Shown here one piece after another: positions 1,331-41,333 of a DNA stretch of 41,900 bases (its first letter is position 1; each line of letters begins with the position of its first letter). Position numbers and translations under genes: made by a program. The stretch lies in the IMG/VR virus record IMGVR_UViG_3300028960_000080, positions 1 to 41,900 of that record. One strand, 5' to 3'. The notes beneath the pieces are model-generated. The model was given only the letters and a program-made list of their open reading frames with translations, searched no databases and was not told the DNA's origin. The DNA is from a virus (lineage: Duplodnaviria; Heunggongvirae; Uroviricota; Caudoviricetes).

Positions 1331-1345
1331 GCTTTTTTATACTAA
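1331..1345. other. attL: attL core (GCTTTTTTATACTAA), followed by lambda-like P' arm up to int
   Basis: Exact match to the lambda att core; identical copy at 41319..41333; downstream sequence (TCAGTCAAAATAAAATCATTATTTG...) matches what I recall of the lambda attP arm. Confidence 0.9.
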
Positions 1346-1418
1346 GTTGGCATTATAAAAAAGCATTGCTTATCAATTTGTTGCAACGAACAGGTCACTA
1401 TCAGTCAAAATAAAATCA

Positions 1419-2489
1419 TTATTTGATTTCAATTTTGTCCCACTCCCTGCCTCTGTCATCACGATACTGTGATGCCATGGTGTCCGACTTATGCCCGAGA
1501 AGATGTTGAGCAAACTTATCGCTTATCTGCTTCTCATAGAGTCTTGCAGACAAACTGCGCAACTCGTGAAAGGTAGGCGGATCCCCTTCGAAGGAAAGAC
1601 CTGATGCTTTTCGTGCGCGCATAAAATACCTTGATACTGTGCCGGATGAAAGCGGTTCGCGACGAGTAGATGCAATTATGGTTTCTCCGCCAAGAATCTC
1701 TTTGCATTTATCAAGTGTTTCCTTCATTGATATTCCGAGAGCATCAACATGCAATGCTGTTGGGATGGCAATTTTTACGCCTGTTTTGCTTTGCTCGACA
1801 TAAAGATATCCATCTACGATATCAGACCACTTCATTTCGCATAAATCACCAACTCGCTGCCCGGTAACAACAGCCAGTTCCATTGCAAGTCTAAGCCAAC
1901 ATGGTGATGATTCTGCTGCTTGATAAATTTTCAGGTATTCGTCAGCCGTAAGTCTTGATCTCCTTACCTCTGATTTTGCTGCGCGAGTGGCAGCGACCGG
2001 GTTTGTTGTTATATGGCCTTCAGCTATTGCCTCTCGGAATGCATCGCTCAGTGTTGATCTGATTAACTTGGCTGACGCCGCCTTGCCCTCGTCTATGTAT
2101 CCATTGAGCATTGCTGCAATTTCTTTTGTGGTGATGTCTTCAAGTGGAACATCAGGTAGCCCCCTCCTTATTGCTTTAATTTTGCTCATGTAATTTATAA
2201 GTGTCTTCTGCTTGATTCCTCTGCTGGCGAGGATTTTTTCGTAGCGATCAAGCCATGAATGTAACGTAACAGAATTATCACTGTTGATTCTCGCTGTCAG
2301 AGGCTTGTGTTTGTGTCCTGAAAATAACTCAATGTTTGCCTGTATTGCTTCAGTAATTGCTATCCTCCTGTCTCTGCCTAATCCGAACTCTTTACCCGTC
2401 CTTGGGTCCCTGTAGCAGTAATATCCATTGTTTCTTATATAAAGGTTAGGGGGTAAATCCCGGCGCTCATGACTTCGCCTTCTTCCCAT
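1419..2489 (-). CDS. int: Tyrosine integrase, lambda Int (356 aa)
   Basis: Translation recognisable as lambda Int along its whole length (same 356-aa size; starts MGRRRSHERRDLPPNLYIRNNGYYCYRDPRTGKEF); adjacent to att core. Confidence 0.97.
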   Translation of the reverse strand: MGRRRSHERRDLPPNLYIRNNGYYCYRDPRTGKEFGLGRDRRIAITEAIQANIELFSGHKHKPLTARINSDNSVTLHSWLDRYEKILASRGIKQKTLINYMSKIKAIRRGLPDVPLEDITTKEIAAMLNGYIDEGKAASAKLIRSTLSDAFREAIAEGHITTNPVAATRAAKSEVRRSRLTADEYLKIYQAAESSPCWLRLAMELAVVTGQRVGDLCEMKWSDIVDGYLYVEQSKTGVKIAIPTALHVDALGISMKETLDKCKEILGGETIIASTRREPLSSGTVSRYFMRARKASGLSFEGDPPTFHELRSLSARLYEKQISDKFAQHLLGHKSDTMASQYRDDRGREWDKIEIK

Positions 2490-2685
2490 TTCTGATCCTC
2501 TTCAAAAGGCTACCTGTTACTGGTCGATTTAAGTCAACCTTTACCGCTGATTCGTGGAACAGATACTCTCTTCCATCCTTAACCGGAGGAGGGAATATCC
2601 TGCATTCGCGCACCCATCGACGAACTGTTTCAAGGCTTCTTGGGCGTCGCTGGCGAGCGTTCCACTCCTGAAGTGTCAAGTACAT
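2467..2685 (-). CDS. xis: Excisionase Xis (72 aa)
   Basis: Internal Met of ORF 2467..2775 gives MYLTLQEWNARQRRPRSLETVRRWVRECRIFPPP..., recognisable as lambda Xis; overlaps int start as in lambda. Confidence 0.9.
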   Translation of the reverse strand: MYLTLQEWNARQRRPRSLETVRRWVRECRIFPPPVKDGREYLFHESAVKVDLNRPVTGSLLKRIRNGKKAKS

Positions 2686-2799
2686 CGCAAAGTCTCCGCA
2701 ATTACACGCAAGAAAAAGCCGCATTGATGCGGCGATGGTAGGTCTGGATATCATTGAGCAATGAACAGGCCTCATCGAGTGTGAGGCTGTATGACTCTA

Positions 2800-3105
2800 T
2801 TATTTCACCTCTTGTTGTGACATTGTTGAAAAATGGATACCAGCTCGTTGCTGCCAGATGATCCAACCGAGAGTCATATCCCATGCCATGTATTCGTTAT
2901 CGCCGTTTTTTGCTCTCCGACGATCTACTAAGTCACCGAAACGCTTTTCCATGAATAATTCATAAGCTTCGCGTTCATCTGGTTCTACTTCCAGAGATAG
3001 GAGTGCGATTTCATAAGCACGGCGCTCAATATCGTCTCGCACGTCAAGGCTGCTGATACGCTCTTTAATTTCTTTAATCAGTTCTTTGTCGGTAAAAGTG
3101 GTCAT
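2800..3105 (-). CDS. Hypothetical early-left protein (101 aa, acidic)
   Basis: Uninterrupted ORF co-oriented with the leftward operon; its start overlaps the stop of the upstream gene by 1 nt. Confidence 0.5.
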   Translation of the reverse strand: MTTFTDKELIKEIKERISSLDVRDDIERRAYEIALLSLEVEPDEREAYELFMEKRFGDLVDRRRAKNGDNEYMAWDMTLGWIIWQQRAGIHFSTMSQQEVK

Positions 3106-3467
3106 TATGCTCCAGCCTCCGGTGCTTTTGGCATTACTGCCCAGTGAGTGATATTGACGTTTTCAAGGTCCCCGACCTGAAATGTCCACTGCCATTCTCC
3201 GGTTTCTTTTTGTCCCCTGGTGTACCAGAGAGAACGCCAGCCAATTAGCCAGCCTTCTCCGTTAGCATCGAATAACAAAACACTTTCATTTGCTGGTGGC
3301 AGTTCAGTTGACACTGGTATTACTTTGTTTTCCTGTGCTGCACATTTAGCTTCAAGCGCATCGAATTTACGCACCAGGTATTCAGCATCCGTTTCATTCA
3401 CTTTCAGATCTCGCGGTACACATTTCCCGCGAAGAAACCCTTCCATTTCGAAAACATTCATGCGCAT
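3105..3467 (-). CDS. Hypothetical early-left protein (120 aa)
   Basis: ORF in the leftward operon, overlapping the stop of the HD-domain gene; Trp-rich C-terminal half. Confidence 0.55.
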   Translation of the reverse strand: MRMNVFEMEGFLRGKCVPRDLKVNETDAEYLVRKFDALEAKCAAQENKVIPVSTELPPANESVLLFDANGEGWLIGWRSLWYTRGQKETGEWQWTFQVGDLENVNITHWAVMPKAPEAGA

Positions 3468-3994
3468 TTGCGTAACTCCGATAATTCGTTAAAGCGTTCC
3501 ATAAACATCCCGTAGGCATGGCCTGGAGCTAGTGGAATCACGTTGAACATCTCTGTTGCCGGGATACCTTCCAGCACAGGCCAGAAAGAGCCATCATCAA
3601 GCCCGAGATCGCGGCGTTCGGTTGCCAGCATGATGAGATCGGCATATTTCACGGGGGTACTCATAACCGGGGGTAACCCGTATTTCTCACGGATTACGGC
3701 GTCTATTTTTTCTTCCATCCGTTTATAGTCAGGAAGAAGGCGTTTCAGTGGCGCCGGGATGTCCTGGCAATATGCTTCTGTTGCATCATGCATTAACGCT
3801 TCAAAAGCAAATTCCTGCGGTACCAGTTGGCTGCAAAGCACCGCATGTTGGGCAACGCTGTAGAAATGTGAAAGATGTCCTGCAAAGCGACAGATATTTG
3901 AAAGAGAAACCGCGATATCGTTAATAACGATGTCGTCTTTATTTATCCTGTCATAATAAAAATGCTTCCCGGAAAAAGTTTTAATAAATGACAT
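3458..3994 (-). CDS. HD-domain phosphohydrolase (YfdR-like 5'-deoxynucleotidase family)
   Basis: HD-domain metal-binding signatures (H...HD...H...D pattern, e.g. LMHDATEAY); start set at the ATG at 3994, which has a GGAGAA Shine-Dalgarno, rather than the GTG at 4021. Confidence 0.75.
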   Translation of the reverse strand: MSFIKTFSGKHFYYDRINKDDIVINDIAVSLSNICRFAGHLSHFYSVAQHAVLCSQLVPQEFAFEALMHDATEAYCQDIPAPLKRLLPDYKRMEEKIDAVIREKYGLPPVMSTPVKYADLIMLATERRDLGLDDGSFWPVLEGIPATEMFNVIPLAPGHAYGMFMERFNELSELRKCA

Positions 3995-4087
3995 TTTGTT
4001 CTCCACGTATATGCGCTGCACCGCGCTGAGTTCTGGTAAAAGGAAGCCCTCACCATCCGGCGATTATTGAGTCAATTACGTTTCCAT

Positions 4088-4109
4088 AAATGCCCCCGCA
4101 GGGGCATTT
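4088..4109 (-). terminator. Perfect 9-bp stem / 4-nt loop hairpin directly downstream of the DUF2303-like gene (intra-operon attenuator or RNA-stability element)
   Basis: AAATGCCCC-CGCA-GGGGCATTT seen in sequence; only a short U-tract follows on the minus strand, so terminator function is uncertain. Confidence 0.3.
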
Positions 4110-4121
4110 GCAGTAATGAAA

Positions 4122-4946
4122 TCAGGCGGTGAAAGTACCAATAAAGGTTTCTACTTTGCTGTCCTTGAATTTCTCAACAAGCAGATCACGAAATTCGTTA
4201 GCCATTTCTTCCTGCACTGCTTCCAGCTGAATAATGCGCAGAACCAGTACAGGACGATCGCCAGTGATAATGCTGAGGCGTAATTTAAACGGACGTTCTT
4301 TCAGGCCTTCAAACGGAACGCATTTAAATTCAAATGCCACAGGCATAATATCTTTGGTCTTCGCTTCGACAGACTCCATCAGGGAGCGTTTGCCGCTGAA
4401 GTCATTGTCTTCAAAATCAGCGGTCTGGTTTGCTTCAATCGTGATTTTACGGACTGCCGCAGCCGCTTTTGTTGCCTGAATAGCATCACCATTAGCATCA
4501 AAGCCCACAAGGTAGTCGGCCCAGTCTTCGAGCCATTCTGCCAGTGACTTCTGGTAGTTACGCTCACCGTTAACAGACAACAGGGCAGAGAACGGTGCTG
4601 TCTTTTTCAGTTTGAGAGTGGCGGTGTTATCTGCGTGACCTGGTTCATCAATAGTACCCAGGTTAAGTACACTGACGGCACGCATATTATCAGCATCGAT
4701 AAAGCAGCGGGTGCCTTCATCTGCAAGATCTTTAGAATAACGGGTAAAGTCATCGATGCTGGCAGTGGAAAGCGCACCACGGAAACGGAAGCGATTTAAA
4801 TTAAATTTTTCCAGATCATGAATGCGGAAATTCTCAGGCAATGCCACAGCATCGGCACCAATCTTACTGATAATTTCATTAACACCCTGAGCAGAAATAA
4901 GGGCATGGATTTGATTAATTGCGGTTGCGTCTAAGTTCTGAGACAT
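4122..4946 (-). CDS. YfdQ-like (DUF2303-family) phage protein, 274 aa
   Basis: ORF with GAGGA Shine-Dalgarno; resembles the YfdQ family of SfV/CPS-53-like prophages (family assignment from memory). Confidence 0.65.
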
Positions 4947-5011
4947 AATAAGTCCTCACTATATAAAGATATTCAGTGATGAGATAAATAATCAGTTAAT
5001 TAAGAACGATA

Positions 5012-5374
5012 TTAATGACCTGCTGCGCGTAATTTTCCGTCAGGCTCACCGGCAAGAGTCAGTAATTGTCCCTGGTCTTCCTGCAGAATAGTCAGGCGAC
5101 CACCGCGATTGACATACATCGGCGTTTCGGTGGTGTCTTCTTCGGAAATTTTCCCGCGGTTAGTCGGGCGAACATATGAGAGTTTGTGTTTGATTTTCAC
5201 ACGGTTCTCATCAAATGGTTCGATTTCCAGGTTGAGTGAGACCTTACCTTTGGTTTTCGTGTTCATCACACCGGAAGCGACTTCACTGAGAACTGCGCCG
5301 ATTTTGGTTTCAAATACGCCGCCGTCCAGCTCCCCGATAAATGCCTGCACATCAGTACTGCGTTCGCTAGCCAT
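5012..5374 (-). CDS. Hypothetical early protein (120 aa); start set at the internal ATG with a GAGGAG Shine-Dalgarno
   Basis: The 226-aa track ORF has a GC-rich, Arg/Cys-rich N-terminal extension with no ribosome-binding site; the ATG at 5374 is preceded by GAGGAGCAGCAAA. Confidence 0.6.
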   Translation of the reverse strand: MASERSTDVQAFIGELDGGVFETKIGAVLSEVASGVMNTKTKGKVSLNLEIEPFDENRVKIKHKLSYVRPTNRGKISEEDTTETPMYVNRGGRLTILQEDQGQLLTLAGEPDGKLRAAGH

Positions 5375-5399
5375 TTTGCTGCTCCTCATCATATCGACC

Positions 5400-5700
5400 C
5401 TGCAAGGTCGGTTGGTTTCTCCACAAAACAGAGAAGAACACCTGCGGTGGCAGCCGCCCGGATGGATTGGGTTATGAGCCCGTCGTCCGGTGATGCTCTT
5501 CTCTGTTTTGTAAAAAGGACGGTACCAGCCGGAAGCAAGGGTACAAACTGGTACCGCCAGGACTACACACAGCATAAAGTTGTGGTGCCTGGTGCCTCCC
5601 GGTGCCTGGCGAAGGTTGCACACCAGACGGGTGGGTATCCACAGAAGGTCGACTGTCAGCCTCAACCTTAACCCGCGTGCGCTGAGCCGCATTCACCACA
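5400..5700. other. GC-rich structured non-coding region (candidate cis-acting RNA or sRNA) within the leftward early operon
   Basis: Perfect 15-bp inverted repeat 5423..5437 / 5497..5511; 9-bp inverted repeat 5520..5528 / 5548..5556; three GGTGCCT copies at 5584..5607; no ORF with a credible ribosome-binding site. Confidence 0.4.
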
Positions 5701-5811
5701 ACGCCAAGGATTCTCTTTGGTTGAAAATACTTAGCTGTTATGTGCCTGTCTTTTCACCACTTCAGGCTCGGTGGTATCCTTTTAAGCCCGTATACATAAA
5801 AGGAAAATCAA

Positions 5812-6057
5812 ATGACTTTTGATGAAAAAGAACTTGATAATGCAATTAATAAAATCATCGTAACGTCGCTCTTTTCCTGTCTCAGCGACACTCAGCAGAA
5901 ACAGTTCTACGAATCGGCTTTCAACATGATCGAGAGTTGTTGTTTCTGCGATGCCGACGAGTTACCTGAAATAATCAGGAAACAGTTGGCTGATGCTCTT
6001 CGAGTGCGACTTTCTGACCAATTTTCTGAAATGTGCTCTCCGAATTTGGACAAATAG
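5812..6057 (+). CDS. Hypothetical small acidic protein (81 aa), rightward, AT-rich
   Basis: ATG preceded by AAAAGGAAAA; converges on and overlaps the 91-aa minus-strand ORF by 83 nt, so one of the two may be spurious. Confidence 0.35.
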   Translation: MTFDEKELDNAINKIIVTSLFSCLSDTQQKQFYESAFNMIESCCFCDADELPEIIRKQLADALRVRLSDQFSEMCSPNLDK

Positions 6058-6250
6058 AAAAAGGCCATTTCCATTCAGGGTCTGATGGAAATACTTCAGC
6101 CTGTTCCAAAGCACGGCGTAAAGAGAATACAACTCCAGCCATAGCCTGATGTTTCCCATTGGTCCAGCTATCGCCGCTCTGATCTACAGGAGCGGCTATG
6201 TCGTATGACCAAACGACTTCACCACTATTGTTTAAAATCTGGACTTTCAT
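5975..6250 (-). CDS. Hypothetical small protein (91 aa)
   Basis: Strong GGAGG Shine-Dalgarno 8 nt upstream of ATG; co-oriented with cI and the early-left operon. Confidence 0.5.
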   Translation of the reverse strand: MKVQILNNSGEVVWSYDIAAPVDQSGDSWTNGKHQAMAGVVFSLRRALEQAEVFPSDPEWKWPFSICPNSESTFQKIGQKVALEEHQPTVS

Positions 6251-6258
6251 TTTGTTCT

Positions 6259-6480
6259 TTAACCTCCAGATTTCCGCGCATCTAAAGGTGCATTCTCATT
6301 TGGTGTGAACTGAATAGTTGTGCTGATATTGATTAATGCTCCGACACACAAGACTACGCACTCAGAGCAGATAGCAACTTCATCTTTTCCGCCTTTGGCG
6401 ATGATTTTTTTTGCCTGCAGCTCGTTTGCGCCACAAAACGAGCATGTGAAATAACGGTTCATTTGCGCTCTCTTACACAT
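6259..6480 (-). CDS. Small ClpX-type C4 zinc-finger protein (73 aa)
   Basis: CSFCG...(19 aa)...CSEC spacing matches the ClpX N-terminal zinc-binding domain; first gene downstream of the putative pL. Confidence 0.6.
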   Translation of the reverse strand: MCKRAQMNRYFTCSFCGANELQAKKIIAKGGKDEVAICSECVVLCVGALINISTTIQFTPNENAPLDARKSGG

Positions 6481-6646: not shown

Positions 6647-7273
6647 TTAGAGTTCGTATTGAACTCCTTTGACTACACCAATGATAAGGCAATTACCATT
6701 GATAGGGATGTTGGGATACCGAGGATTTAATGGCACTAAAAACTTTTGAGGGCCATCGATGACTAATTTTTTTACTGTAGCTTCGTTTGTTCCATCAAGT
6801 CGAGCGATGACTATTTTTCCATGACGAGGTTCTGCATCTGGATCTACAATCACTGTTGCGCCTTCTGGTATTGTTGGGAGGCCATTAGGGTTAGTCATGG
6901 AGTCACCTTTAACCTCTAATGCAAATGAGTTATCACCAATCTTTAATGATGTATCTACCCACTTGTCCACTTCACTAAACACTTCTGCTGCCCTGCACTC
7001 AGTAAACTGCCCAGCCTGAACCCACGATATTACAGGAACTCTGCGCATGTTTGTGACGAGTTTGCCTTCAAACTCAGCACCATAAAGAATGTAATCTATT
7101 GACGTATTGAAGAACTTCGCTAATTTCGAAAGTGCCTCCCCACCAGGGGTATTGATGTCTTTCTCCCAGTACCCCACAGCAACGTCGCTTACTCCACAAA
7201 ATTTACCCAATTCTTTCTGGGACGTTCTGGTAACTCTTCTCAGAGCTTTTATACGCTGACCAACCGTTTCCAT
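6647..7273 (-). CDS. cI: CI-type repressor (N-terminal HTH, C-terminal S24 LexA-like autopeptidase)
   Basis: HTH region (QKELGKFCGVSDVAVGYWE), GDSM serine motif and downstream Lys (VKKL) typical of S24 repressors; divergent from a cro-like gene. Confidence 0.9.
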   Translation of the reverse strand: METVGQRIKALRRVTRTSQKELGKFCGVSDVAVGYWEKDINTPGGEALSKLAKFFNTSIDYILYGAEFEGKLVTNMRRVPVISWVQAGQFTECRAAEVFSEVDKWVDTSLKIGDNSFALEVKGDSMTNPNGLPTIPEGATVIVDPDAEPRHGKIVIARLDGTNEATVKKLVIDGPQKFLVPLNPRYPNIPINGNCLIIGVVKGVQYEL

Positions 7274-7370
7274 AGGAGCACCATTTCTTGAATTGCTAAG
7301 TAATCTTAGTTTTTATTGACCAAAGATAGATTTGTAATTAGCATCTAATAAAACTTAGTTTGGAGGGCGT
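7274..7370. promoter_or_regulatory. oR/pR/pRM immunity switch region
   Basis: Divergent cI/cro arrangement; palindromes CTAAGTAATCTTAG (7296..7309) and CTAATAAAACTTAG (7345..7358); TTGACC (7316..7321) as candidate pR -35; GGAGGG Shine-Dalgarno before cro. Confidence 0.6.
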
Positions 7371-7571
7371 ATGACAACTGACGATATCGAAAGCTACTTC
7401 GGCAGTATTGAGAAAGTTGCTGCTTTTTTCGGCATAACAACTGAAGCCGTTTATCAGTGGCGAAACCGTCCGGGCCAGTTAATTCCAAAAGGACGTGCAG
7501 CAGAAGCTGCATATAGAACTTGCGGACGGTTGCCATTTAAACCTGAGCTTTATGAAAAATCTAATGGATAA
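7371..7571 (+). CDS. cro: Cro-like HTH regulator (YdaS-like), 66 aa
   Basis: Small HTH protein (AAFFGITTEAVYQWRNR) divergently transcribed from cI. Confidence 0.75.
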   Translation: MTTDDIESYFGSIEKVAAFFGITTEAVYQWRNRPGQLIPKGRAAEAAYRTCGRLPFKPELYEKSNG

Positions 7572-14586: not shown

Positions 14587-14589
14587 TAT

Positions 14590-16485: not shown

Positions 16486-16515
16486 AAACCCGCCGTCGAG
16501 CGGGTTTTGTCGTTT
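16486..16515 (+). terminator. tR'-like intrinsic terminator upstream of the lysis genes (end of a short late leader RNA)
   Basis: CCCGC-CGTCGA-GCGGG hairpin followed by TTTTGTCGTTTC on the plus strand; no upstream plus-strand gene nearby; position matches lambda pR'-6S-tR' architecture. Confidence 0.55.
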
Positions 16516-16986: not shown

Positions 16987-16989
16987 TTT

Positions 16990-24516: not shown

Positions 24517-24538
24517 CTGTTCTGACGGGTGAAGAATC

Positions 24539-24739: not shown

Positions 24740-24741
24740 GT

Positions 24742-30777: not shown

Positions 30778-30858
30778 TACCCCGCTTAAACACGGGTTTT
30801 GTCGTTTAGCAGGTTCTTGGTAGGATTAGTCCGATACTTTAATGATGGGAATAGGGAT

Positions 30859-31536
30859 ATGAAAGTCTTAACAATTTATTCAGTTGTCGGCATGGCTCTT
30901 TTACTCGGGGGATGTACCTCTCCGAAGTACAATTATTTACCAAAAACAGAAAATTATAGTGAACCTCCTGTAGGAAGCATTAATACAGCTTATGTCGGTG
31001 ATTCAATGATTAAGCAGGGGGTGTCACAGAGGTTTGAAGGTCTGAAGGTTAATGCTCCTGCGAGAATTTCCTGGGCGTATACGATCACTCCGGGGATGCT
31101 GAAAAAGGTTGGTGAGGATAACAAGGCTGATTATTACTTTCTCACAAACGGTGCTGATTCAGCCAATGTGGAAAAGGCAGCCCTTGCCGATATGTGGCAG
31201 GGCATCATGGTAGAAAAGAAAAAGAATGCCTTATGTGTAATAACAGTTTTCGGTGTTACCAACTGTGAAACTAACATGCCTATCGAAAAGGTTACTCTGA
31301 ATATCAGTGGTGATTCATCTTTCCAGCAAGCTCTGCTTTACAACGGAAGGGTCGGAAACAAAATCAACATTGGATATCGTGAATTTTCATCGAATACAGC
31401 ACGCCCGGCCTTCAACAACGATGTTGAGTATGATCTCGCGGAGTCTAAAACAATTGGCTATAAAGGGGCTAAATTCGAAGTACTTGATGCGAGTAACCAA
31501 AGCATAAGGTATCGGGTAATAAGTAACTTTAGATAA
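30859..31536 (+). CDS. Moron lipoprotein (about 225 aa) inside the tail module
   Basis: ATG at 30859 gives MKVLTIYSVVGMALLLGGCTSPK with lipobox LLGGC; AT-rich by eye; followed by its own intrinsic terminator. Confidence 0.65.
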   Translation: MKVLTIYSVVGMALLLGGCTSPKYNYLPKTENYSEPPVGSINTAYVGDSMIKQGVSQRFEGLKVNAPARISWAYTITPGMLKKVGEDNKADYYFLTNGADSANVEKAALADMWQGIMVEKKKNALCVITVFGVTNCETNMPIEKVTLNISGDSSFQQALLYNGRVGNKINIGYREFSSNTARPAFNNDVEYDLAESKTIGYKGAKFEVLDASNQSIRYRVISNFR

Positions 31537-31550
31537 GCGATAATTTAATG

Positions 31551-31576
31551 AAACCCGCTTCGGCGGGTTTTTTTAT
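31551..31576 (+). terminator. Rho-independent terminator after the lipoprotein moron
   Basis: AAACCCGC-TTCG-GCGGGTTT hairpin followed by TTTTTA. Confidence 0.8.
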
Positions 31577-31589
31577 ATCCGGAGTTTAT

Positions 31590-32918: not shown

Positions 32919-33994
32919 ACGACAATGTCACGCTACGGATAAATGGCCGGGAGTGGAATGGCTGGACATCGGTGCGCATCGGTGCCGGTATTGAACGGCT
33001 GGCGCGGGATTTCAGTGTGGAGATCACCCGCCAGTGGCCGGGTGATGAGGGTATCACCACGCTTCAGCCGCGCATTAAAAACGGTTCAAAAGTGGAGGTG
33101 CTGATTGGTGATGAGCTGGTGATCACCGGCTGGGTGGAGGCGACGCCCGTTCGTTACGATGCCCGTTCGGTCAGCACCGGTATTGCCGGACGTAGTCTGA
33201 CGGCTGACCTGATTGACTGTGCAGCCGAACCGACACAGTTTAACGGACGCTCGCTGGTGCAGATTGCGCAGGCGCTTGCTGCGCCTTTCGGCATTGAGGT
33301 GGTGAACAGCGGTGCGCCGTCGGGTGTTATTCCTGATGTTCAGCCTGATCACGGTGAAACGGTGATTGAGGTAATCAACAAAATACTCGGTCAGCAGCAG
33401 GCGCTGGCTTATGACGACCCGCACGGCAGGCTGGTGATTGGTGGTATTGGCTCAACGCGGGCACATACCGCGCTGGTACTCGGGGAAAACATCCTTTCCT
33501 GCGATACGGAGAAGAGTATCCGGGAGCGGTTTTCTGTTTACCAGGTGGCGGGGCAGCGTGCCGGAAACGACGATGATTTCGGTGAGGCCACCACCACCGC
33601 GCTGCGGGCCCGCACAGAGGACGCATTTATTGCCCGTTACCGTCCGATGTATATCAGGCAGACAGGACAGGCTACGGGGGCTGGCTGTATTGCCCGTGCG
33701 GACTTTGAAGCCCGACAACGGGCGGCGCGGACGGATGAAACCACCTATGTGGTGCAGGGCTGGCGACAGGGTAACGGTACGCTGTGGCAGCCCAACCAGC
33801 GGGTGATTGTCTTTGATCCGGTCTGTGGTTTCGACAACACCGAACTGCTTGTTTCGGAAGTCACGTTTACTCAGGACCAGAACGGCACCCTGACGGAAAT
33901 CCGTGTCGGCCCACCAGATGCTTATCTGCCTGAACCCGAAGCCCCCGGCGCGCGGAAAAAGAAAAAAGCCAGAGTACAGGAGGACCCGTTCTGA
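32915..33994 (+). CDS. Baseplate hub / tail protein (Mu gpP-like)
   Basis: Conserved position in the Mu-type baseplate module; Lys-rich C-terminus. Confidence 0.7.
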   Translation: MNDNVTLRINGREWNGWTSVRIGAGIERLARDFSVEITRQWPGDEGITTLQPRIKNGSKVEVLIGDELVITGWVEATPVRYDARSVSTGIAGRSLTADLIDCAAEPTQFNGRSLVQIAQALAAPFGIEVVNSGAPSGVIPDVQPDHGETVIEVINKILGQQQALAYDDPHGRLVIGGIGSTRAHTALVLGENILSCDTEKSIRERFSVYQVAGQRAGNDDDFGEATTTALRARTEDAFIARYRPMYIRQTGQATGAGCIARADFEARQRAARTDETTYVVQGWRQGNGTLWQPNQRVIVFDPVCGFDNTELLVSEVTFTQDQNGTLTEIRVGPPDAYLPEPEAPGARKKKKARVQEDPF

Positions 33995-34542
33995 TGAGGA
34001 CGATTGAAGCCATGCAGCGACAACTCCTCGGCCTGATTGGGCGGGCCGTGGTGAAAAGCATCAGTGCCGCCACGAAATGTCAGACCGTGGATGTGTCCCT
34101 GATTGCCGGTGAACCCAAAGCCGGGGTTGAACATCTTGAACCCTACGGTTTTACTGCAAGGGCAAACAGTGGTGCGGAAGCGGTGGTGTTGTTTCCGGAT
34201 GGCGACCGTTCTCATGCGGTGGTTGTTACGGTGTCGGACCGTCGCTACCGCCTGAAAGGGCTGCAGACGGGGGAGGTGGCTGTCTATGACGATCAGGGGC
34301 AGTCCGTGACGCTGACCCGGGAGGGGATTGTGGTGGACGGTGCAGGTAAAACGATCACGTTTCGCAATGCACCTGAAGCACGTTTTGAAATGGACCTGGA
34401 AGTGACAGGACAGGTGAAAGACCTGTGCGACTCCGGCGGCACCACCATGTCAGCGATGCGGCTTGCCTATAACGGGCATCGTCACAGAGAGAACGGTCAG
34501 GGCAGTAACACCGACAAACCTGATAAATCGATGGAGGCATGA
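33994..34542 (+). CDS. Baseplate assembly protein V (spike)
   Basis: Size and position within the baseplate module. Confidence 0.7.
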   Translation: MRTIEAMQRQLLGLIGRAVVKSISAATKCQTVDVSLIAGEPKAGVEHLEPYGFTARANSGAEAVVLFPDGDRSHAVVVTVSDRRYRLKGLQTGEVAVYDDQGQSVTLTREGIVVDGAGKTITFRNAPEARFEMDLEVTGQVKDLCDSGGTTMSAMRLAYNGHRHRENGQGSNTDKPDKSMEA

Positions 34543-34967
34543 TGGAACTGTGGCTGACGGTGAACGGTAAACGCACCTGCGCCAGCGCACCGCTGGATCC
34601 GCTGACCCGCGCCGTGGTGATTTCCCTGTTTACCTGGCGGCGGGCGGAGCCTGATGACAATGCCGACGTCCCGATGGGATGGTGGGGGGATACCTGGCCT
34701 GAGGTACAGAATGACCGTTACGGCTCCCGACTGTGGCTGCTTCAGCGCAGCAAACTGACCAATCAACTGGTGCAGACGGTAAGGGGGTATATCCGCGAAT
34801 GCCTGCAATGGATGATTGATGACGGCGTGGTGTCCCGTATTGATCTGGATATCCGCCGCACCGGGATTAATGAACTGGGTAACAGTATCACTCTCTGGCG
34901 TCGTGACGGACCGGTAATGATTTCTTTTGATGATCTGTGGAGTGCGATAACGCATGGCGGACAGTGA
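34539..34967 (+). CDS. Baseplate protein (Mu gp46 / gpW-like)
   Basis: 142-aa ORF before the baseplate J-like gene. Confidence 0.65.
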   Translation: MMELWLTVNGKRTCASAPLDPLTRAVVISLFTWRRAEPDDNADVPMGWWGDTWPEVQNDRYGSRLWLLQRSKLTNQLVQTVRGYIRECLQWMIDDGVVSRIDLDIRRTGINELGNSITLWRRDGPVMISFDDLWSAITHGGQ

Positions 34968-36012
34968 ATTTCAGCGCCCGACGCTGGCAGAAAATATCAG
35001 TATGCTCCGTAACGATTTATTCGCCAGGCTGGACGTCAGCGACACGCTCCGGCGCATGGATGAAGACGTGCGGGCAAAGGTGTATGCGGCGGCGCTGCAT
35101 ACGGTTTACGGGTACATCGATTATCTGGCAATGAACATGCTGCCTGACCTGTGCGATGAGTCCTGGCTGGCGCAACATGCTGCGATGAAACGGTGTCCGC
35201 GCAAGGGGGCCACGGCTGCCAGCGGGTATATGCGCTGGGAAGGTGTCAGCGATGGCCTGAAGGTGACCGCCGGAAGTGTTATTCAGCGCGATGACCTGGT
35301 TCAGTACACGGCAACTGCCGATGCAACCAGCACCGGTGGTGTCCTGCGCGTGCCGATCGCCTGCTCAAGTGCAGGCGCGGTCGGTAACGCTGACGACGGT
35401 ACGTCATTAATCCTGGTCACGCCGGTTAATGGTCTGCCGTCTTCCGGCGAGGCAGATACCCTGACAGGTGGATTTGATACTGAAGAGCTGGAAACGTGGC
35501 GCGCCCGCGTCATTGAGCGGTATTACTGGACGCCTCAGGGCGGGGCTGACGGGGACTATGTCGTCTGGGCTAAAGAAGTGCCCGGCATTACCCGCGCATG
35601 GACATACCGACACTGGATGGGAACGGGGACTGTCGGTGTGATGATTGCCAGCAGTGACCTGATTAACCCCATTCCGGAAGAATCAACGGAAACGGCGGCA
35701 AGACAACATATCGAGCCACTGGCCCCGGTGGCAGGCTCTGATTTGTATGTATTCAGGCCGGTGGCGCACAAAGTGGATTTTCATATCCGCGTGACGCCGG
35801 ACACACCGGAAATACGGGCTGCCATCACCGCGGAGTTGCGTTCATTCCTGCTGCGTGATGGTTATCCGCAGGGAGAGCTTAAGGTATCGCGTATCAGTGA
35901 AGCGATTTCCGGTGCGAACGGGGAATACAGCCATCAGTTGCTTGCTCCGGCGGACAATATCTCCATTGCAAAAAATGAACTGGCGGTTCTGGGGACGATT
36001 TCATGGACGTGA
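34954..36012 (+). CDS. Baseplate J-like protein
   Basis: 352-aa ORF in the conserved baseplate position. Confidence 0.8.
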
Positions 36013-36587
36013 CAAACGATGATTACATCCGTCTGTTGTCGGCACTGTTGCCCCCTGGTCCGGCGTGGTCAGCCAGCGATCCGGCGATTGCCGGTGCGGC
36101 ACAGTCATTAACCCGTGCTCATCAGCGTGCGGATGCCCTGATGCGGGAGCTGGATCCGCGCACCACCACCGAACTGATAAACCGCTGGGAGCGTCTGTGC
36201 GGCCTGCCGGATGAATGTATTCCGGCAGGGACGCAGACCCTTCGCCAGCGTCAGCAACGGCTGGATGCGAAGGTTAACCTGGCGGGTGGCATCAATGAGG
36301 ATTTTTACCTTGCGCAGCTTGCTGCCCTGGGCAGACCAGATGCCACCATCACGCGATACGACAAAAGCACGTTCACCTGCTCATCGGCCTGTACTGACGC
36401 GGTGAATGCGCCGGAATGGCGGTATTACTGGCAGGTCAATATGCCAGCTGCCACCAACACCACCTGGATGACATGTGGCGATCCCTGTGATTCCGCACTG
36501 CGTATCTGGGGGGACACCGTTGTCGAGTGCGTGCTTAACAAACTCTGCCCGTCGCATACCTACGTAATTTTTAAATATCCGGAGTAA
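36003..36587 (+). CDS. Tail protein, YmfQ / Mu gp48-like (DUF2313-like)
   Basis: 194 aa; directly precedes the tail fibre gene as in e14/Mu-like modules. Confidence 0.7.
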
Positions 36588-36590
36588 TTC

Positions 36591-37523
36591 ATGCATCGTA
36601 TAGACACGAAAACCGCGCAGAAGGATAAGTTCGGCGCGGGTAAGAACGGTTTTACCCGTGGTAACCCCCAGACCGGCACGCCTGCCACCGATCTGGATGA
36701 TGACTACTTTGACATGTTGCAGGAGGAGCTTTGCAGCGTGGTGGAGGCATCCGGTGCCAGCCTGGAGAAGGGGCGGCATGACCAGTTGCTTACAGCGCTT
36801 CGTGAGCTGCTGTTAAGCCGCAAGAATCCGTTTGGCGATATCAAATCGGATGGCACGGTGAAAACGGCTCTCGAAAACCTTGGTTTGGGAGATGGCTCGG
36901 GGCGTTACAGCAAAACTGTCGTTTTTTCATCGTCGGGTTCATATACGTGGCCAGCTGACGTAAAACGAATTGACGTTATTCTGACTGCGGCGGGCGGCGG
37001 TGGCGGTGGATGTAACGCGGAGAACGCAAATCAGACATTTTCAGGGGCTGGCGGAGGAGCCGGAGGTACTGTTTTTGCCACTATTTATGCGACAGACAAC
37101 GATGCCGGGCCAGGGACCTATACAGTGACAATTGGTAGCGGTGGTAGTGGTGCCAATGGGCCAGGGTCTGGAAATAATGGCGGTCATAGTTCGTTCATGA
37201 CATTAACTGCGCTCGGCGGCCAGGGTGGGCAATGGGGCGGCGCTACAAATACCGCTGGCGGGCTCGGTGGTTCAGGCTCTGGCGGTTATAAAACTGAACA
37301 AGGCGGAGACGGTTCAGACGGACAGGCGGGCCAGGCGCTATTAGTAGGCAATGGGGCATCGAGCTATTGGGGTGGCGGCGGCCGCGCTGGGCAACTGAGC
37401 GGTAATTCTGGAGTTTGCTCTGGCTCCGGCGGCGGGGGTGCATACGATAATAGCTATTCACACACGTCAGGACGTGGCGGGCACGGAGCTAATGGCGTGC
37501 TGGTAATTCGGGAGTACATGTAA
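36591..37523 (+). CDS. Tail fibre protein with Gly-rich C-terminal region
   Basis: N-terminus [22 protein letters not shown] typical of side tail fibre N-termini; long Gly-rich repeats ([23 protein letters not shown]). Confidence 0.7.
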
Positions 37524-37928
37524 ATGAATGATGTTTATGCAGTTGTTGATAATAACGTTGTTATTAATGTCATTATCTGGGACGGAATTTCTGAATGGAA
37601 ACCAGAGGCTGGTAATTTAGTTCCGTTAAACGGCGATGCTGGCATCGGTTGGTCATATTCAGACGGAGTATTTACCGCGCCACCTCCCCCAGAACGCTCT
37701 CACAACGCGTTAGTTGCGGAGGCTGAGCTGCAGAAATCAGCACTACTGACCGTAGCAAATAACGCAATAGCACCGCTGCAGGATGCCGTTGATTTGGAAA
37801 TGGCGACAGACGATGAACAGACGTTACTGCTGGCGTGGAAAAAATACAGGGTACTGCTGAACCGTGTTGATACCTCAGCGGCACCCGAAATAGAGTGGCC
37901 TACGCAACCGGGGGAGCGGGCCAGTTGA
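37524..37928 (+). CDS. Tail fibre assembly protein (Tfa)
   Basis: N-terminus MNDVYA... and C-terminus ...[22 protein letters not shown] characteristic of Tfa chaperones. Confidence 0.8.
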
Positions 37929-38226: not shown

Positions 38227-39702
38227 CTAAAGTGAATCTATTCCATTTTTCCAAATAAGAACTTTTTTGTCTTGTATTTTATGAGTGCTATCAGGCTGCC
38301 CAAACTGTTTTATGGCCTTTTCCTCTTGCTCTACATCATCAGCAATTAAAAAATTAGCTCCTTTTTGGTACCATTCTTTTTTTGATAACCAATTATATGG
38401 TGTGAATCTATCACCATACGACTCAAATGGAGCTACGTTGATATCACTAAATCCAGCAACAGATGATGCAAACCAAAATGATGCATAACCTCTTTGTAGT
38501 TTATTTTTTATTAAGAAATCTCTTAATTCTATTGTAATATCATTTTTATTAACAATGTTTTTTGTTGTTGCCATCGTTGGCAACGATAACGCAATAACGA
38601 TTAATGATATTAGTAAATTTGTCTTCACTGGTAAGGAGAAAGAATTTCTAGCAATCACAATTGACATGAAAATAAACGTTGGGACTATGTATCTAATTGA
38701 GAAAAGATTTGTTGGCCTGTCACTTGAAATATAGGCAATCAACATGACTAATGATGATACAATAAGAACCTGGTCAATAAAATCAATTTCTTTAAATTTA
38801 AGAATATTTTTATAAGATAAAAATAAGAATACGAAAATGAAAAACACCTTTATCATGGTGAATAATGAGTTAAAGCTACCTATCTCCATTCCAAACGCGT
38901 ACCCACCAAAAAATTTGAATACGCCCATGATAACAAGAGATATGTTGCTTGTTATTTGTTGAAACTCTACTATGTGAGGTTTGGTTATGCCTGGCAGGTT
39001 AAATCCACCAAGCTTAATGAATATAAATGATATGAGCTCAGCAATAAATATAGATGATATAGTGAAAACCAACAATAACAAATCATTAGTATTCAACGAA
39101 TCTCTTTTCATTAGAGAAGCATACATTCTATATATGCAAACAAAAACTATAGGTATTATAAAGGCATATTTAGATATATCATCACTAAAAACAAGCAACG
39201 ATAACATAAATACATATGGAAAAAGTAATTTTAAATCATTTTTCTTTCTGTATCTATCTATTATTAGTATGATCGCCAGCATGTAAATGTACGCACCAAT
39301 ATGTATACATGCTATAAGCATTATACTTGATGAGAAAACCGTTGGAATTCCAAATACAGAAAGAACAGGCCATAACGATGCCCTACTTTTAGTATGAGAG
39401 ATATATAGCGATAGTGTTACTAATATAGACATGAAAACTCCAGGCACAATATAGTACAGATTTTCATTAAATCCTATTATTTTTATCGCTATAGCATATG
39501 GTATTATTTCTGTGAAATAGAATGATACAGTTGATAAATCCCACCCACTGAGAAAAATATTTCCTTCAGTAATATCCCTTGCCTCTCTGAATGAAGACAT
39601 GACATCTGAGTTTGGAATTATGTTTTTAGCAATCATTGAGTAAATTATTGATAATACAATAAATGTTGCCAGCCAATATAAAAGCTCAAGCTTCTTGCTC
39701 AT
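38227..39702 (-). CDS. Serotype-specific O-antigen glucosyltransferase (GtrC-type polytopic membrane protein)
   Basis: 491-aa multi-pass membrane protein immediately downstream of gtrB; very AT-rich. Confidence 0.8.
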
Positions 39703-40616
39703 TTTTTACCCTTAAGTACATACTTTGGACGCTGCTTAACTTCAATGTAAATTCTACCAATATACTCACCGAGCACTCCAATCCCAATTAACTGGATGCC
39801 GCCAAGAAATAATATTGATACAAGAATTGAAGGGTATCCAGGTACATTATTACCAAAAATTAATTTATCAATTATCATCCATGAACCGTATGTAAATGAT
39901 ATACATGCAATAAATAACCCAATATAGGTCCACATGCGAAGCGGGAATGTTGAGAAGCTAGTGATCCCTTCCAGCGCCAAGTTCCATAGCTTCCATCCAT
40001 TGAACTTTGTGCTTCCTGCAACGCGTTCTGCTCGCGCATATTCTACGACATCGGTTCGACCACCAACCCAGCTCAGCACACCCTTCATAAACAGGTTTCG
40101 TTCTGGCATGAGCTTAATGTTTTCTACTACTTCGCGAGACATGAGCCGGAAGTCGCCAACATTCTCTTCTATCTGAGGGTTGCTGATTTTGTTATGAAGT
40201 TTATAGAACCACTCAGCAGATTTACGCTTCAGCCTGCTGTCAGTGGAGCGGTCAGAGCGTTTAGCCAGAACCATATCTGCACCGGCCTGCCATTTCTCTA
40301 TCAAGTGAGGAATAACTTCGATAGGGTCTTGCAGATCAACGTCAATCGGGATAATTGCCTCCCCGGTAGCATGGTCCAGACCTGCGAACAGGGCGGGTTC
40401 TTTGCCGAAGTTACGTGTGAACGACAGCGAAACCACAAGCGGGTCGGCAACAGCAAGCTCGTTGATAATTGATTCTGTAGCGTCTTTGCTGCCATCGTTT
40501 ATGAAGACTATCTCGACTTCATGCTGCTGAAGCCCTTCAAATTCGCGCACGGTTTTATAAAAAATAGGTATCGTGGCCTCTTCGTTAAAGACCGGAACGA
40601 CTAAAGAAATTTTCAT
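39699..40616 (-). CDS. gtrB: Bactoprenol glucosyltransferase GtrB
   Basis: GT2-family glycosyltransferase signatures ([22 protein letters not shown]) and two C-terminal transmembrane helices. Confidence 0.92.
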
Positions 40617-40975
40617 TTCGCATCCCTAAAGACAATGTATTTTGAATAAATGAACCCGCATATCAGGCTGATGGCGGAGAAGGTGACAAGAGTTATCATC
40701 GGGGGAAGTGCGCATCTATCAGCAGCCCATCCAACAGTAGCACTGAGTGTTCCCATGAACCCGACATATAACATGTAGCGCATCGTTGTAGTTGATGATT
40801 TGAATGTGAATTTTGCATTCGCGAAGAAGCTAAAACTCACAGCCACAACGAAACCTGCGAAGTTTGCCAGAGCCTGATTGGTATGCGCGGCATAGATACA
40901 TACACTAAAAACCACCCAGTGTATAAGTGTGTTCAGCACACCAATCGAGGTGTACCTTGCAAATATATTTAACAT
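40613..40975 (-). CDS. gtrA: GtrA flippase-like small membrane protein
   Basis: 120-aa four-helix membrane protein upstream of gtrB; the three genes overlap by 4 nt each. Confidence 0.85.
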
Positions 40976-41318
40976 TTATTTAATCAATGAGTTCTGAAAG
41001 GTATGAAGTCTATCATCCAAGTCTCAATCGATCGATACTTGCGGTAGTTGATGAGGAAAACTCTGGTACACAAAGCTTTGCACTGGACTGCAAGGTGTTG
41101 TGCTTCTCTGGAGTGCGATATGTTTGATGACAAAAAATTAGCGCAAGAGGACAAAAAATCACCTTGCGCTAATGCTCTGTTACAGGTCACTAATACTATC
41201 TAAGTAGTTGATTCATAGTGACTGGATATGTTGTGTTTTGCAGTATTATACAGTCTATTTTTTAAGCCAAATGTATTGTAATGGATTGATATTAATGATT
41301 TTTGCTGTTTCTGGTTCA

Positions 41319-41333
41319 GCTTTTTTATACTAA
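41319..41333. other. attR: attR core (GCTTTTTTATACTAA) preceded by a diverged lambda-like P arm
   Basis: Exact direct repeat of the attL core; followed by CTTGAGCGAAACGGGAAGG, which matches what I recall of the bio-side attB flank. Confidence 0.9.

What the first reader, a model, noticed from the sequence alone, without database searches (positions are those of the whole stretch)
1331..41333. Mosaic prophage: lambda-type att/int/xis and R endolysin combined with HK97-type head and Mu-type contractile tail
Int, Xis, the att core and arm sequence and the R endolysin are recognisably lambda's, yet the immunity region, replication genes, lysis partners, HK97-like packaging/head genes and the sheath/tube/baseplate tail are not lambda-like. 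No recombination module (exo/bet/gam or recET-like) and no N-like gene were recognised. This gives a myovirus-tailed phage using the lambda attachment site and illustrates modular exchange at module boundaries.
Basis: partly seen in the sequence, partly recalled or inferred. Interest (0 to 1): 0.4.

Follow-up and report, generated by a model that had tools for sequence, protein, structure and literature searches.

The report
SfV-type prophage at lambda's site
This is an apparently intact 40-kb prophage of the well-known SfV family (lambda-style gene order, HK97-type head, Mu-type contractile tail, O-antigen-modifying gtr genes) that has swapped its usual integration genes for a 1.7-kb lambda/HK97 integrase cassette, so it sits at lambda's chromosomal site; it is real but an ordinary example of phage mosaicism.

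Summary
Exact copies of lambda's 15-bp att core lie at 1331-1345 and 41319-41333, between ybhC and ybhB. Int is 99.2% and Xis 98.6% identical to lambda's (99.7% and 100% to HK97's).

The head genes are distant HK97 homologues (26-36% aa). The tail genes are Mu homologues (27-43% aa).

The framing needs correcting. Outside a ~1.7-kb lambda/HK97 integration cassette, the element is an SfV/SfII-family "lambdoid myovirus". In total, 31 of 57 proteins are at least 90% identical to SfV's. The lambda-like R endolysin (95.6% to SfV R), the missing N gene and the missing recombination module are traits of that family, not separate lambda imports.

The cassette is bounded by a 50-bp patch shared by HK97 and SfV (2738-2787) and by a clean breakpoint at about 41062/41064. 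The same architecture was published for prophage 042p1 of E. coli 042. The exact left junction occurs in 6 of 5,426 complete E. coli genomes, and the gtr-attR junction in 92.

Verdict: a new member of a known kind, of low interest.

Worth a separate look: the cargo between Q and the holin is an OLD-family nuclease plus a DNMT1-like C5 methyltransferase. That pairing is conserved across many phyla.

The parts
1331..1345 (+). attL core (B-O-P'), identical to lambda's 15-bp core; the P' arm with Int arm sites continues to about 1461
   Evidence: Exact match. The P' arm is 100% identical to lambda and HK97.
1419..2489 (-). int, a lambda-type tyrosine integrase (356 aa)
   Evidence: 99.2% aa to lambda Int and 99.7% to HK97 Int; catalytic RKHRHY residues retained.
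2467..2685 (-). xis, excisionase (72 aa; the 102-aa ORF in the list starts upstream of the true start)
   Evidence: 98.6% to lambda Xis and 100% to HK97 Xis.
2738..2787 (.). Left junction of the integration cassette: a 50-bp patch shared by HK97 and SfV/SfII
   Evidence: HK97 identity runs to 2787 and SfV/SfII identity starts at 2738.
2800..6480 (-). SfV-type early-left operon: YfdT-like, DUF551, HD 5'-deoxynucleotidase YfdR-like, YfdQ/DUF2303, YfdP-like, two small ORFs and a ClpX-type zinc-finger protein. No N, exo/bet/gam or recET.
   Evidence: 96.7-100% aa to SfV orf28-33 where SfV has a counterpart; the ClpX zinc-finger ORF has no SfV match. Pfam and PHROGs hits.
6647..7571 (.). Immunity switch: cI (6647-7273, minus strand; HTH plus S24 LexA-like autopeptidase with GDSM and KK motifs) and cro (7371-7571, plus strand)
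   Evidence: Pfam Peptidase_S24, HTH_3 and P22_Cro. Only 34% aa to lambda CI. This allele is shared with E. coli C4 and phage 689R6.
7609..13535 (+). Early-right operon: CII-like YmfL, an O-like replication protein (8511-9452) with iterons at 8820-8883, PerC/YfdN, Dam, a LexA DNA-binding-domain protein, RusA, KilA-N, DUF968/HNH, and Q antiterminator (13179-13535)
   Evidence: Pfam, tandem repeats, and mostly 95-99% aa to SfV.
13546..16380 (-). Cargo in the Q-holin slot: C5 cytosine methyltransferase (13546-14586) and OLD-family ABC-ATPase/TOPRIM nuclease (14590-16380); GC 0.35
   Evidence: Pfam, PADLOC and NCBIfam hits; structural model and Foldseek search; composition.
16486..17842 (+). Terminator upstream of the lysis genes (16486-16507), lambda-S-family holin (16660-16986), R transglycosylase (16990-17466), and Rz (17450-17842)
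   Evidence: Terminator scan and Pfam. R is 95.6% to SfV, 88.6% to HK97 and 87% to lambda.
18506..26510 (+). Packaging and head module: HNH, cos (about 18914/18915), TerS, TerL, YmfR, portal, S78 protease, HK97-fold capsid, connector, head closure and tail terminator
   Evidence: The SfV genome ends map to 18914/18915. Pfam. 26-36% aa to HK97 gp2-5. The portal-protease-capsid alleles are of the SfII/042p1 type.
26519..37928 (+). Mu-type contractile tail: gp38-like, sheath, tube, chaperone, tape measure, DNA-circulation protein, baseplate P/45/46/47/48 homologues, glycine-rich fibre (36591-37523) and tail fibre assembly protein. A lipoprotein-like moron is inserted at 30859-31536.
   Evidence: 27-43% aa to Mu and 96-100% aa to SfV, except the fibre tip and tail fibre assembly protein, which differ from SfV. 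Pfam.
38227..40975 (-). gtr operon for O-antigen glucosylation: gtrA (40613-40975), gtrB (39699-40616), and a type-specific gtrC-like membrane protein (38227-39702; GC 0.33)
   Evidence: GtrA 82.5% and GtrB 86.6% aa to SfV. The GtrC-like protein has no Pfam hit and belongs to a small enterobacterial family. 99% nt to 042p1, whose gtr genes are described in PMC2808357.
41064..41333 (+). attR: lambda-type P arm (sib hairpin, P1, P2, Xis sites, IHF H2) plus the 15-bp core. The SfV-like sequence stops at 41062.
   Evidence: 89% nt to lambda 27470-27742. P1 and P2 are as in HK97, and the H2 consensus positions are invariant across the four sequences aligned.

Best explanation
The window holds one complete temperate phage genome of 39,988 bp, integrated at E. 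coli attB-lambda between ybhC and ybhB. It is a member of the SfV-like group of lambdoid myoviruses.

Genome layout (shown by sequence comparison):
- Lambda-style gene order.
- A LexA-like cI repressor, probably SOS-cleavable, and a cro gene.
- An O-like initiator with iterons inside its own gene.
- A Q antiterminator driving the late operon.
- A holin, R transglycosylase and Rz for lysis.
- cos packaging with an HNH protein plus TerS/TerL.
- An HK97-fold capsid with an S78 prohead protease.
- A Mu-type sheath, tube and baseplate tail.

Its ancestral thrW-specific int/xis/attP has been replaced by a ~1.7-kb lambda/HK97 cassette carrying the P arm, core, P' arm, int and xis.

Inferred steps:
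- Integration and excision should run by the lambda pathway: Int plus IHF for integration, and Int, Xis, IHF and Fis for excision.
- The replacement most likely arose by recombination between co-resident or co-infecting lambdoid phages. On the xis side the exchange point is a 50-bp shared patch; on the gtrA side the breakpoint is sharp.
- As a lysogen it should glucosylate the host O antigen through gtrABC. It also carries an OLD-nuclease/C5-methyltransferase cargo.
For: - Att cores and flanks.
- Int/Xis near-identity and catalytic residues.
- SfV and SfII nucleotide coverage and 31 proteins at least 90% identical to SfV.
- Pfam assignments for every module.
- Junction alignments.
- Iterons.
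- Terminator before the holin.
- No gene is truncated relative to the characterised phages SfV and SfII.
- The same architecture, with intact genes, occurs at the same site in E. coli MZ1211 and 042. Prophage 042p1 was judged likely functional in PMC2808357.
- The left junction occurs in 6 complete E. coli genomes and the right junction in 92.
- The SfV-like group is defined in PMC3603311. Its family traits (HK97-family head, no N/cII/cIII) are described in PMC3851460.
Against: - No experimental data on induction, excision or virions exist for this element.
- The P arm is only 89% identical to lambda. The presumed X2/Fis region carries 3 changes relative to lambda, so excision efficiency is unknown.
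- No helicase or helicase-loader gene was recognised next to the O-like gene.
- No sequenced phage isolate in the 50,697-record phage collection carries the int-to-SfV junction. This combination is therefore known only as a prophage.
Confidence: 0.9

Rival explanations
1. The element has the identity described above but is a defective (cryptic) prophage. It can no longer excise or form infectious particles.
For: - There is no functional evidence either way.
- The P arm has diverged (89% to lambda), with changes in the Xis/Fis region.
- The tail fibre is short and glycine-rich. PGAP annotates the same fibre region as two pieces in the 042, MZ1211 and C4 relatives.
- A relic fragment of an inverted tail-fibre-assembly gene is annotated just after tfa in relatives.
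Against: - Every morphogenesis, lysis, regulatory and integration gene is full length compared with SfV/SfII.
- Both att cores are perfect, and the arm-type sites equal those of functional HK97.
- The fibre is a single uninterrupted 310-aa ORF here.
- No IS elements or frameshifts were seen.
- The 40-kb size is within the SfV-SfII range of 37.1-41.5 kb.
Confidence: 0.2
2. The region is two juxtaposed elements: a lambda-like remnant contributing int/xis/att, next to an independent SfV-like prophage with its own lost or hidden attachment sites.
For: Two very different sequence ancestries meet within a few bases at 2738-2787 and at about 41062/41064.
Against: - Only two att cores exist in the window, and they bracket the whole element.
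- No thrW-type integrase, tRNA gene or second att is present.
- The lambda-derived DNA is just the minimal functional cassette and sits exactly where SfV's own int/xis/attP lie.
- The same junctions recur in independent genomes.
Confidence: 0.03
3. The mosaic is an assembly chimera that joins reads from a lambda-like and an SfV-like prophage.
For: Prophage repeats are a common source of misassembly, and the provenance of the window is unknown.
Against: The identical left junction is present in 6 independently finished E. coli genomes and the right junction in 92. Whole-length colinear relatives exist in MZ1211 and 042.
Confidence: 0.01

Closest known systems
Shigella flexneri serotype-converting phages SfV (U82619) and SfII (KC736978); the 'SfV-like' lambdoid myoviruses
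   Same: - Gene order throughout.
- 31 of 57 proteins at least 90% identical to SfV.
- 24.6 kb (SfV) and about 27.6 kb (SfII) of nucleotide match at 80-98%.
- HK97-family head, Mu-type tail, R/Rz lysis genes, cos position, and gtrA/gtrB next to the attachment site.
- No N or recombination module.
(PMC3851460.)
   Different: - The integration module is lambda/HK97-type, targeting attB-lambda rather than tRNA-thrW.
- Different cI/cro allele and a different Q.
- Different cargo between Q and the holin.
- Different fibre tip and a different type-specific gtrC.
- The portal-protease-capsid alleles are of the SfII type, not the SfV type.
Prophage 042p1 (ROD15) of enteroaggregative E. coli 042 (NC_017626 877116-917926; PMC2808357)
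   Same: - Same site (ybhC/ybhB) with a 15-bp direct repeat.
- Same lambda-type int/xis (98.4% nt).
- Same late region from HNH to attR at 97.7-99.1% nt, including the fibre, gtrABC and the P arm.

   Different: 042p1 has a P22/HK97-like early half with RecT, kil, N, cII, a P22-type replication module and nin genes. The window keeps the SfV-type early region instead, and it carries different morons.
Lambda and HK97 integration module (attP, int, xis)
   Same: - Identical core and identical P' arm.
- Int and Xis at 98.6-100% aa.
- P1/P2 arm sites and the sib hairpin conserved.
- Same chromosomal target.

   Different: - The P arm is 89% identical.
- Nothing else of lambda or HK97 is present at nucleotide level except the R gene, at 85-86% nt.
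- There are no lambda head, siphovirus tail, N, red or P genes.
Phage Mu tail module and HK97 head module
   Same: Homologous proteins in the same order: Mu gp38, L, N, P and 45-48 (the tube gene M only by position and Pfam Tail_tube), and HK97 gp2-5.
   Different: - Only 26-43% aa identity and no nucleotide similarity.
- No Mu transposase and no Mu-type head.
- No HK97 non-contractile tail.

Membership tests
Lambda-type site-specific integration module | 15-bp core GCTTTTTTATACTAA duplicated at both prophage ends, at attB between ybhC (gal side) and ybhB (bio side) | tested here: met
   flanking genes.
Lambda-type site-specific integration module | Lambda Int orthologue with the catalytic residues R212, K235, H308, R311, H333 and Y342, plus lambda Xis | tested here: met
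   Int 99.2% and Xis 98.6% aa to lambda; all six residues retained. Residue numbering is from established knowledge of lambda Int.
Lambda-type site-specific integration module | Arm-type Int sites (P1, P2, P'1-3) and accessory sites (IHF, Xis, Fis) in the P and P' arms | tested here: inconclusive
   The P' arm is identical to lambda. P1 and P2 are as in HK97. The H2 consensus positions are invariant. The presumed X2/Fis region has 3 changes against lambda. Site positions are partly recalled from memory and partly taken from the J02459 annotation.
Lambda-type site-specific integration module | Int/Xis-dependent excision and integration demonstrated | not testable with these tools
   Needs induction and junction PCR.
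SfV-like lambdoid myoviruses | Lambdoid gene order and regulation: cI/cro, Q antiterminator, lysis cassette ahead of the terminase | tested here: met
SfV-like lambdoid myoviruses | HK97-family packaging and head genes combined with a Mu-type contractile tail | tested here: met
SfV-like lambdoid myoviruses | High sequence identity to SfV/SfII across early and late regions | tested here: met
   24.6 kb matches SfV and about 27.6 kb matches SfII; 31 proteins are at least 90% identical.
SfV-like lambdoid myoviruses | gtrA-gtrB-gtr(type) operon between the tail genes and the attachment site | tested here: met
SfV-like lambdoid myoviruses | Integration into tRNA-thrW by the SfV-type integrase (a feature of the Shigella phages SfI/II/IV/V, not of the wider group) | tested here: not met
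   No tRNA gene and no SfV Int/Xis homologue. PMC3603311 reports 5 integration sites for SfV-like prophages in E. coli, so this feature does not define the group.
SfV-like lambdoid myoviruses | Contractile-tailed virion seen by electron microscopy | not testable with these tools
   Needs induction and EM.
Lambdavirus (phage lambda proper) | Lambda head (Nu1-FII) and siphovirus tail (Z-J) genes, N, red, and the O/P replication pair | tested here: not met
   Only int, xis, R and partial cI, O and tfa similarities were found.
Muvirus | Transposase A/B and transpositional replication | tested here: not met
   No Mu similarity outside the tail and Rz.
OLD-family nucleases (side finding, 14590-16380) | N-terminal ABC ATPase plus C-terminal TOPRIM domain with conserved acidic metal ligands | tested here: met
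   - PADLOC hits HEC-04 at 2e-36 and ATPase-Toprim_I-B at 1e-24.
- Invariant Walker A, D293/E294, E379/D380 and D435-G-D437 in the alignment.
- The model (pLDDT 87) matches Thermus OLD 6p74 and GajA over its full length.

The most novel reading that the evidence does not exclude
The least ordinary item is not the mosaic itself but its cargo at 13546-16380: an OLD-family ABC-ATPase/TOPRIM nuclease directly followed by a DNMT1-like C5 cytosine methyltransferase.

- In 80 species from many phyla, a homologous methyltransferase sits directly adjacent on the same strand in 57 loci, and within 4 kb in 14 more.
- The pair could therefore be a methylation-guarded, restriction-modification-like defence, in which an OLD nuclease acts as the restriction component.
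- Here it would be carried in the Q-holin cargo slot of temperate phages.
- I found no description of a methyltransferase-linked OLD class in the papers I could search. REBASE could not be checked.

A weaker second reading concerns attB-lambda. It may act as an exchange point where unrelated phages swap att-proximal blocks. The fibre-tip/gtr/attR block of this window is 99.8% identical to that of a morphologically unrelated lambdoid prophage in strain FDAARGOS_1288.
Probability: 0.3. Interest if true: 0.55.

Novelty: new member of a known kind. Interest (0 to 1): 0.2.

Why it matters
As a mosaic, this is a clean textbook case. A minimal integration cassette of about 1.7 kb has been exchanged precisely at module boundaries, which re-targets an SfV-type serotype-converting phage from a tRNA gene to lambda's site.

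It adds one more documented integration site for the SfV-like group. It also shows that O-antigen-modifying gtr operons sit at attR-lambda in about 1.7% of complete E. coli genomes, which is relevant to serotyping and phage-receptor variation.

It does not change any concept. The family, the architecture and even a sibling prophage at the same site (042p1) are already published.

The cargo deserves its own follow-up as a possible undescribed restriction-modification-like use of OLD nucleases.

Tried and rejected
- tRNA scan of the window: none found, so a tRNA-targeting integration module is ruled out.
- Nucleotide comparison with Mu: no similarity. The Mu relation exists only at protein level.
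- Search for a sequenced phage isolate with the lambda-int/SfV junction in 50,697 phage records: none covers at least 80% of 1250-3200.
- Search for a complete E. coli genome identical over the whole window: none. Different segments have different best relatives, namely MZ1211, C4, 042 and FDAARGOS_1288.
- Idea that R was imported from lambda: rejected, because R is closer to SfV R.
- Idea that the two segments unmatched by my reference set (17954-18494 and 30767-31544) are unique: rejected. Both occur in other E. coli prophages.
- Papers I could not read: Allison et al. 2002 on the SfV genome, the supplement of PMC3603311 listing integration sites, and Krishnan et al. 2020 on ABC ATPases.
- Literature searches for a methyltransferase-linked OLD class found nothing.
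- Not attempted: Rfam and covariance-model searches, cI operator mapping, and dedicated Rz1 prediction.

Full report
**1. What is there**

The window runs from ybhC (1-1284, minus strand) to ybhB (41424-41900, minus strand). These are the genes that flank attB-lambda in E. coli.

Lambda's 15-bp core GCTTTTTTATACTAA occurs exactly twice, at 1331-1345 and 41319-41333.
- Left of the first core the sequence is bacterial (B arm); right of it is lambda's P' arm, 100% identical.
- The second core is preceded by a lambda-type P arm and followed by the B' arm.
- The predicted excised circle is 39,988 bp.
- No tRNA gene is present.

**2. The lambda part**

Window 1331-2733 equals lambda 27724-29126 at 97.9% nt. 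HK97 matches further, to 2787, at 99.2%.
- Int (1419-2489, minus strand) differs from lambda Int at 3 of 356 residues and from HK97 Int at 1. It keeps R212, K235, H308, R311, H333 and Y342.
- Xis is the 72-aa protein at 2467-2685. It has one change against lambda and is identical to HK97's.
- The P arm (41064-41318) is 89% identical to lambda. The sib hairpin and arm sites P1 and P2 are conserved as in HK97. The consensus positions of the IHF H2 site are invariant among the window, lambda, HK97 and E. coli 042, while the positions between them vary. The presumed X2/Fis region carries three changes.

**3. Everything else is SfV-family**

blastn finds 24.6 kb of the window in SfV, and megablast about 27.6 kb in SfII, at 80-98% identity.
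- At protein level, 31 of 57 products are at least 90% identical to SfV proteins. These cover the early-left operon, Dam, RusA, DUF968, holin, R, the terminase and the whole tail.
- The portal-protease-capsid block (about 21145-24741) is not SfV-like at nucleotide level. It is the SfII/042/689R6 allele, in line with PMC3851460, which reports two divergent HK97-family head alleles in this group.
- The head proteins are 26-36% identical to HK97 gp2-5 and hit Phage_portal, Peptidase_S78 and Phage_capsid.
- The tail proteins are 27-43% identical to Mu gp38, L, N, P, 45-48 and U. They hit the sheath, tube, Mu_Gp45, GP46, Baseplate_J and Mu_Gp48 families.
- There is no nucleotide similarity to Mu.

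PMC3603311 treats "SfV-like" phages as a distinct group of lambdoid myoviruses with 5 integration sites in E. coli. PMC3851460 states that SfII, SfIV and SfV lack N, cII and cIII.

**4.

- The R endolysin is 87% identical to lambda R but 95.6% to SfV R, so it belongs to the backbone.
- The holin is a member of the lambda S Pfam family.
- The replication initiator shares 36% identity with the C-terminal half of lambda O. It also carries four 15-bp iterons inside its own gene, as lambda O does.
- The absence of a recombination module and of N is confirmed as far as Pfam and PHROGs can show. RusA is present.
- cI is an HTH plus S24 autopeptidase repressor, with GDSM and KK motifs visible in the sequence. 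SOS induction is the expected trigger; this is an inference.

**5. The junctions**

On the xis side, HK97 identity ends at 2787 and SfV/SfII identity begins at 2738. A 50-bp patch is thus common to both parents.

On the gtrA side, SfV/SfII identity ends at 41062 and lambda identity starts at 41064. Beyond that point only a weak resemblance (about 73%) remains between SfV and lambda.

The lambda/HK97 DNA therefore amounts to about 1.7 kb. It occupies exactly the position of SfV's own attP-int-xis. I infer a cassette replacement by recombination between lambdoid genomes, homologous at least on the left side.

**6. How common, and already known?**

- E. coli 042 carries a prophage at the same site with the same int/xis and a 97.7-99.1% identical late region, including the fibre, gtrABC and attR. 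Its early half is P22/HK97-like, with RecT and N.
- That prophage is 042p1. PMC2808357 describes it as half lambda/P22-like and half SfV-like, with gtr cargo, flanked by a 15-bp repeat and probably functional.
- E. coli MZ1211 has the SfV-type early region as well.
- The exact left junction (2300-3300) occurs in 6 of 5,426 complete E. coli genomes.
- ybhC-int-xis followed by SfV-type early genes occurs in 35 genomes.
- The gtrA/P-arm/attR junction occurs in 92 genomes.
- No record in the phage collection contains the int-to-SfV junction.
- No single genome matches the whole window. Each segment has a different best relative, as expected for a recombining prophage population.

**7. Integrity**

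Every structural, lysis, regulatory and integration gene is full length relative to SfV/SfII. There are no IS elements. The size lies within the family's range. Function cannot be proved from sequence.

**8. Cargo noticed**

(a) The gtrA, gtrB and 491-aa gtrC-like genes (38227-40975, GC about 0.33) are 99% identical to those of 042p1. The gtrC-like protein has no Pfam domain and belongs to a small enterobacterial family.

(b) Between Q and the late terminator/holin lie two reverse-strand genes of GC 0.35.
- One is a C5 methyltransferase. The other is a 596-aa OLD-family nuclease.
- PADLOC matches the nuclease to HEC-04 at 2e-36, and the ATPase and TOPRIM motifs are invariant in the alignment. 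The AlphaFold model (pLDDT 87) matches Thermus OLD and GajA.
- HEC-04/IbfA-type proteins are experimentally supported single-gene defences (bioRxiv 10.1101/2024.01.29.577857; PMC12111858).
- In 80 loci from 80 species, a homologous C5 methyltransferase is directly adjacent on the same strand in 57, and within 4 kb in 14 more.
- The methyltransferase's best matches among solved structures are DNMT1 catalytic domains.
- A Yersinia homologue pair occupies the same Q-holin slot in another prophage.
- Relatives of this prophage carry other genes in that slot.

(c) A lipoprotein-like ORF (30859-31536) lies between the tape-measure and DNA-circulation genes. A GrlR-family ORF (18089-18409) lies after Rz. 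Both sit in slots that differ between relatives.

(d) Strain FDAARGOS_1288 has a morphologically unrelated lambdoid prophage at the same site. It carries lambda-type int/xis and a 99.8% identical fibre-tip/tfa/gtr/attR block. This suggests exchange of att-proximal blocks among phages that share attB-lambda.

**9. Verdict**

The element is a new member of the known SfV-like group that carries the lambda/HK97 integration cassette, and a sibling prophage has already been published. Interest is low. The OLD-nuclease/methyltransferase cargo is the one item that merits independent follow-up.

Noticed in passing
window 13546-16380 (minus strand): A C5 cytosine methyltransferase sits directly downstream of a 596-aa OLD-family ABC-ATPase/TOPRIM nuclease (HEC-04/IbfA-like). 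The genes are 3 bp apart and have GC 0.35. They lie in the slot between Q and the late terminator/holin. A homologous methyltransferase is directly adjacent to the nuclease homologue in 57 of 80 species across many phyla. I found no description of a methyltransferase-linked OLD class.
   Followed up: partly
window 13546-14586 (minus strand): The methyltransferase's best sequence matches among solved structures are eukaryotic DNMT1 catalytic domains (E 2e-34). The bacterial enzymes M.HaeIII and M.HhaI match less well (about 1e-19 and 1e-13).
   Followed up: no
window 38227-40975 (minus strand): A gtrA-gtrB-gtrC-like O-antigen glucosylation operon lies next to attR (GC about 0.33). The 491-aa type-specific protein has no Pfam domain and only about 18 related clusters, all enterobacterial where a source names the organism. 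The gtrA/attR-lambda junction is present in 92 of 5,426 complete E. coli genomes.
   Followed up: partly
window 30859-31536 (plus strand): A lipoprotein-like ORF (signal sequence LLGGC; phrog_1353, function unknown) is inserted between the tape-measure and DNA-circulation genes. SfV has only a short gap here, and 042/MZ1211 carry an OB-fold gene on the other strand. The segment is found in 54 complete E. coli genomes.
   Followed up: partly
window 18089-18409 (plus strand): A GrlR-family ORF (NCBIfam hit at 1e-9, below the curated cut-off) lies between Rz and the HNH/terminase genes. This segment is absent from my reference phages but present in 14 complete E. coli genomes at 99% identity or more.
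   Followed up: partly
window 8820-8883: Four and a third copies of a 15-bp repeat (TCTGACACGTCAAAA) lie inside the O-like replication gene. They resemble lambda's ori iterons inside O. No helicase or loader gene was recognised downstream.
   Followed up: no
L001 19878-24901 and L095 (E. coli FDAARGOS_1288): A lambdoid prophage with entirely different head and tail genes occupies the same ybhC/ybhB site. It has lambda-type int/xis and shares the fibre-tip/tfa/gtrCBA/attR block with the window at 99.8% identity. Att-proximal blocks seem to move between unrelated phages that use attB-lambda.
   Followed up: partly
window 2738-2787: A 50-bp stretch just beyond xis is shared by HK97 and by SfV/SfII. 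It marks the crossover point of the integration-cassette swap.
   Followed up: yes
window about 37900-38025: In the 99%-identical regions of 042, MZ1211 and FDAARGOS_1288, PGAP annotates a reverse-strand fragment of a tail-fibre-assembly gene just after tfa. It is possibly a relic of an invertible fibre segment. No invertase is present here, whereas phage 689R6 has one.
   Followed up: no
window 14590-16380 versus lambda 25660-26406 (L004): The OLD-like ATPase shows weak similarity (25% over 299 aa, E 9e-9) to the lambda b-region ORF at 25396-26973. I recall this ORF as ea59; the J02459 record does not label it correctly.
   Followed up: no
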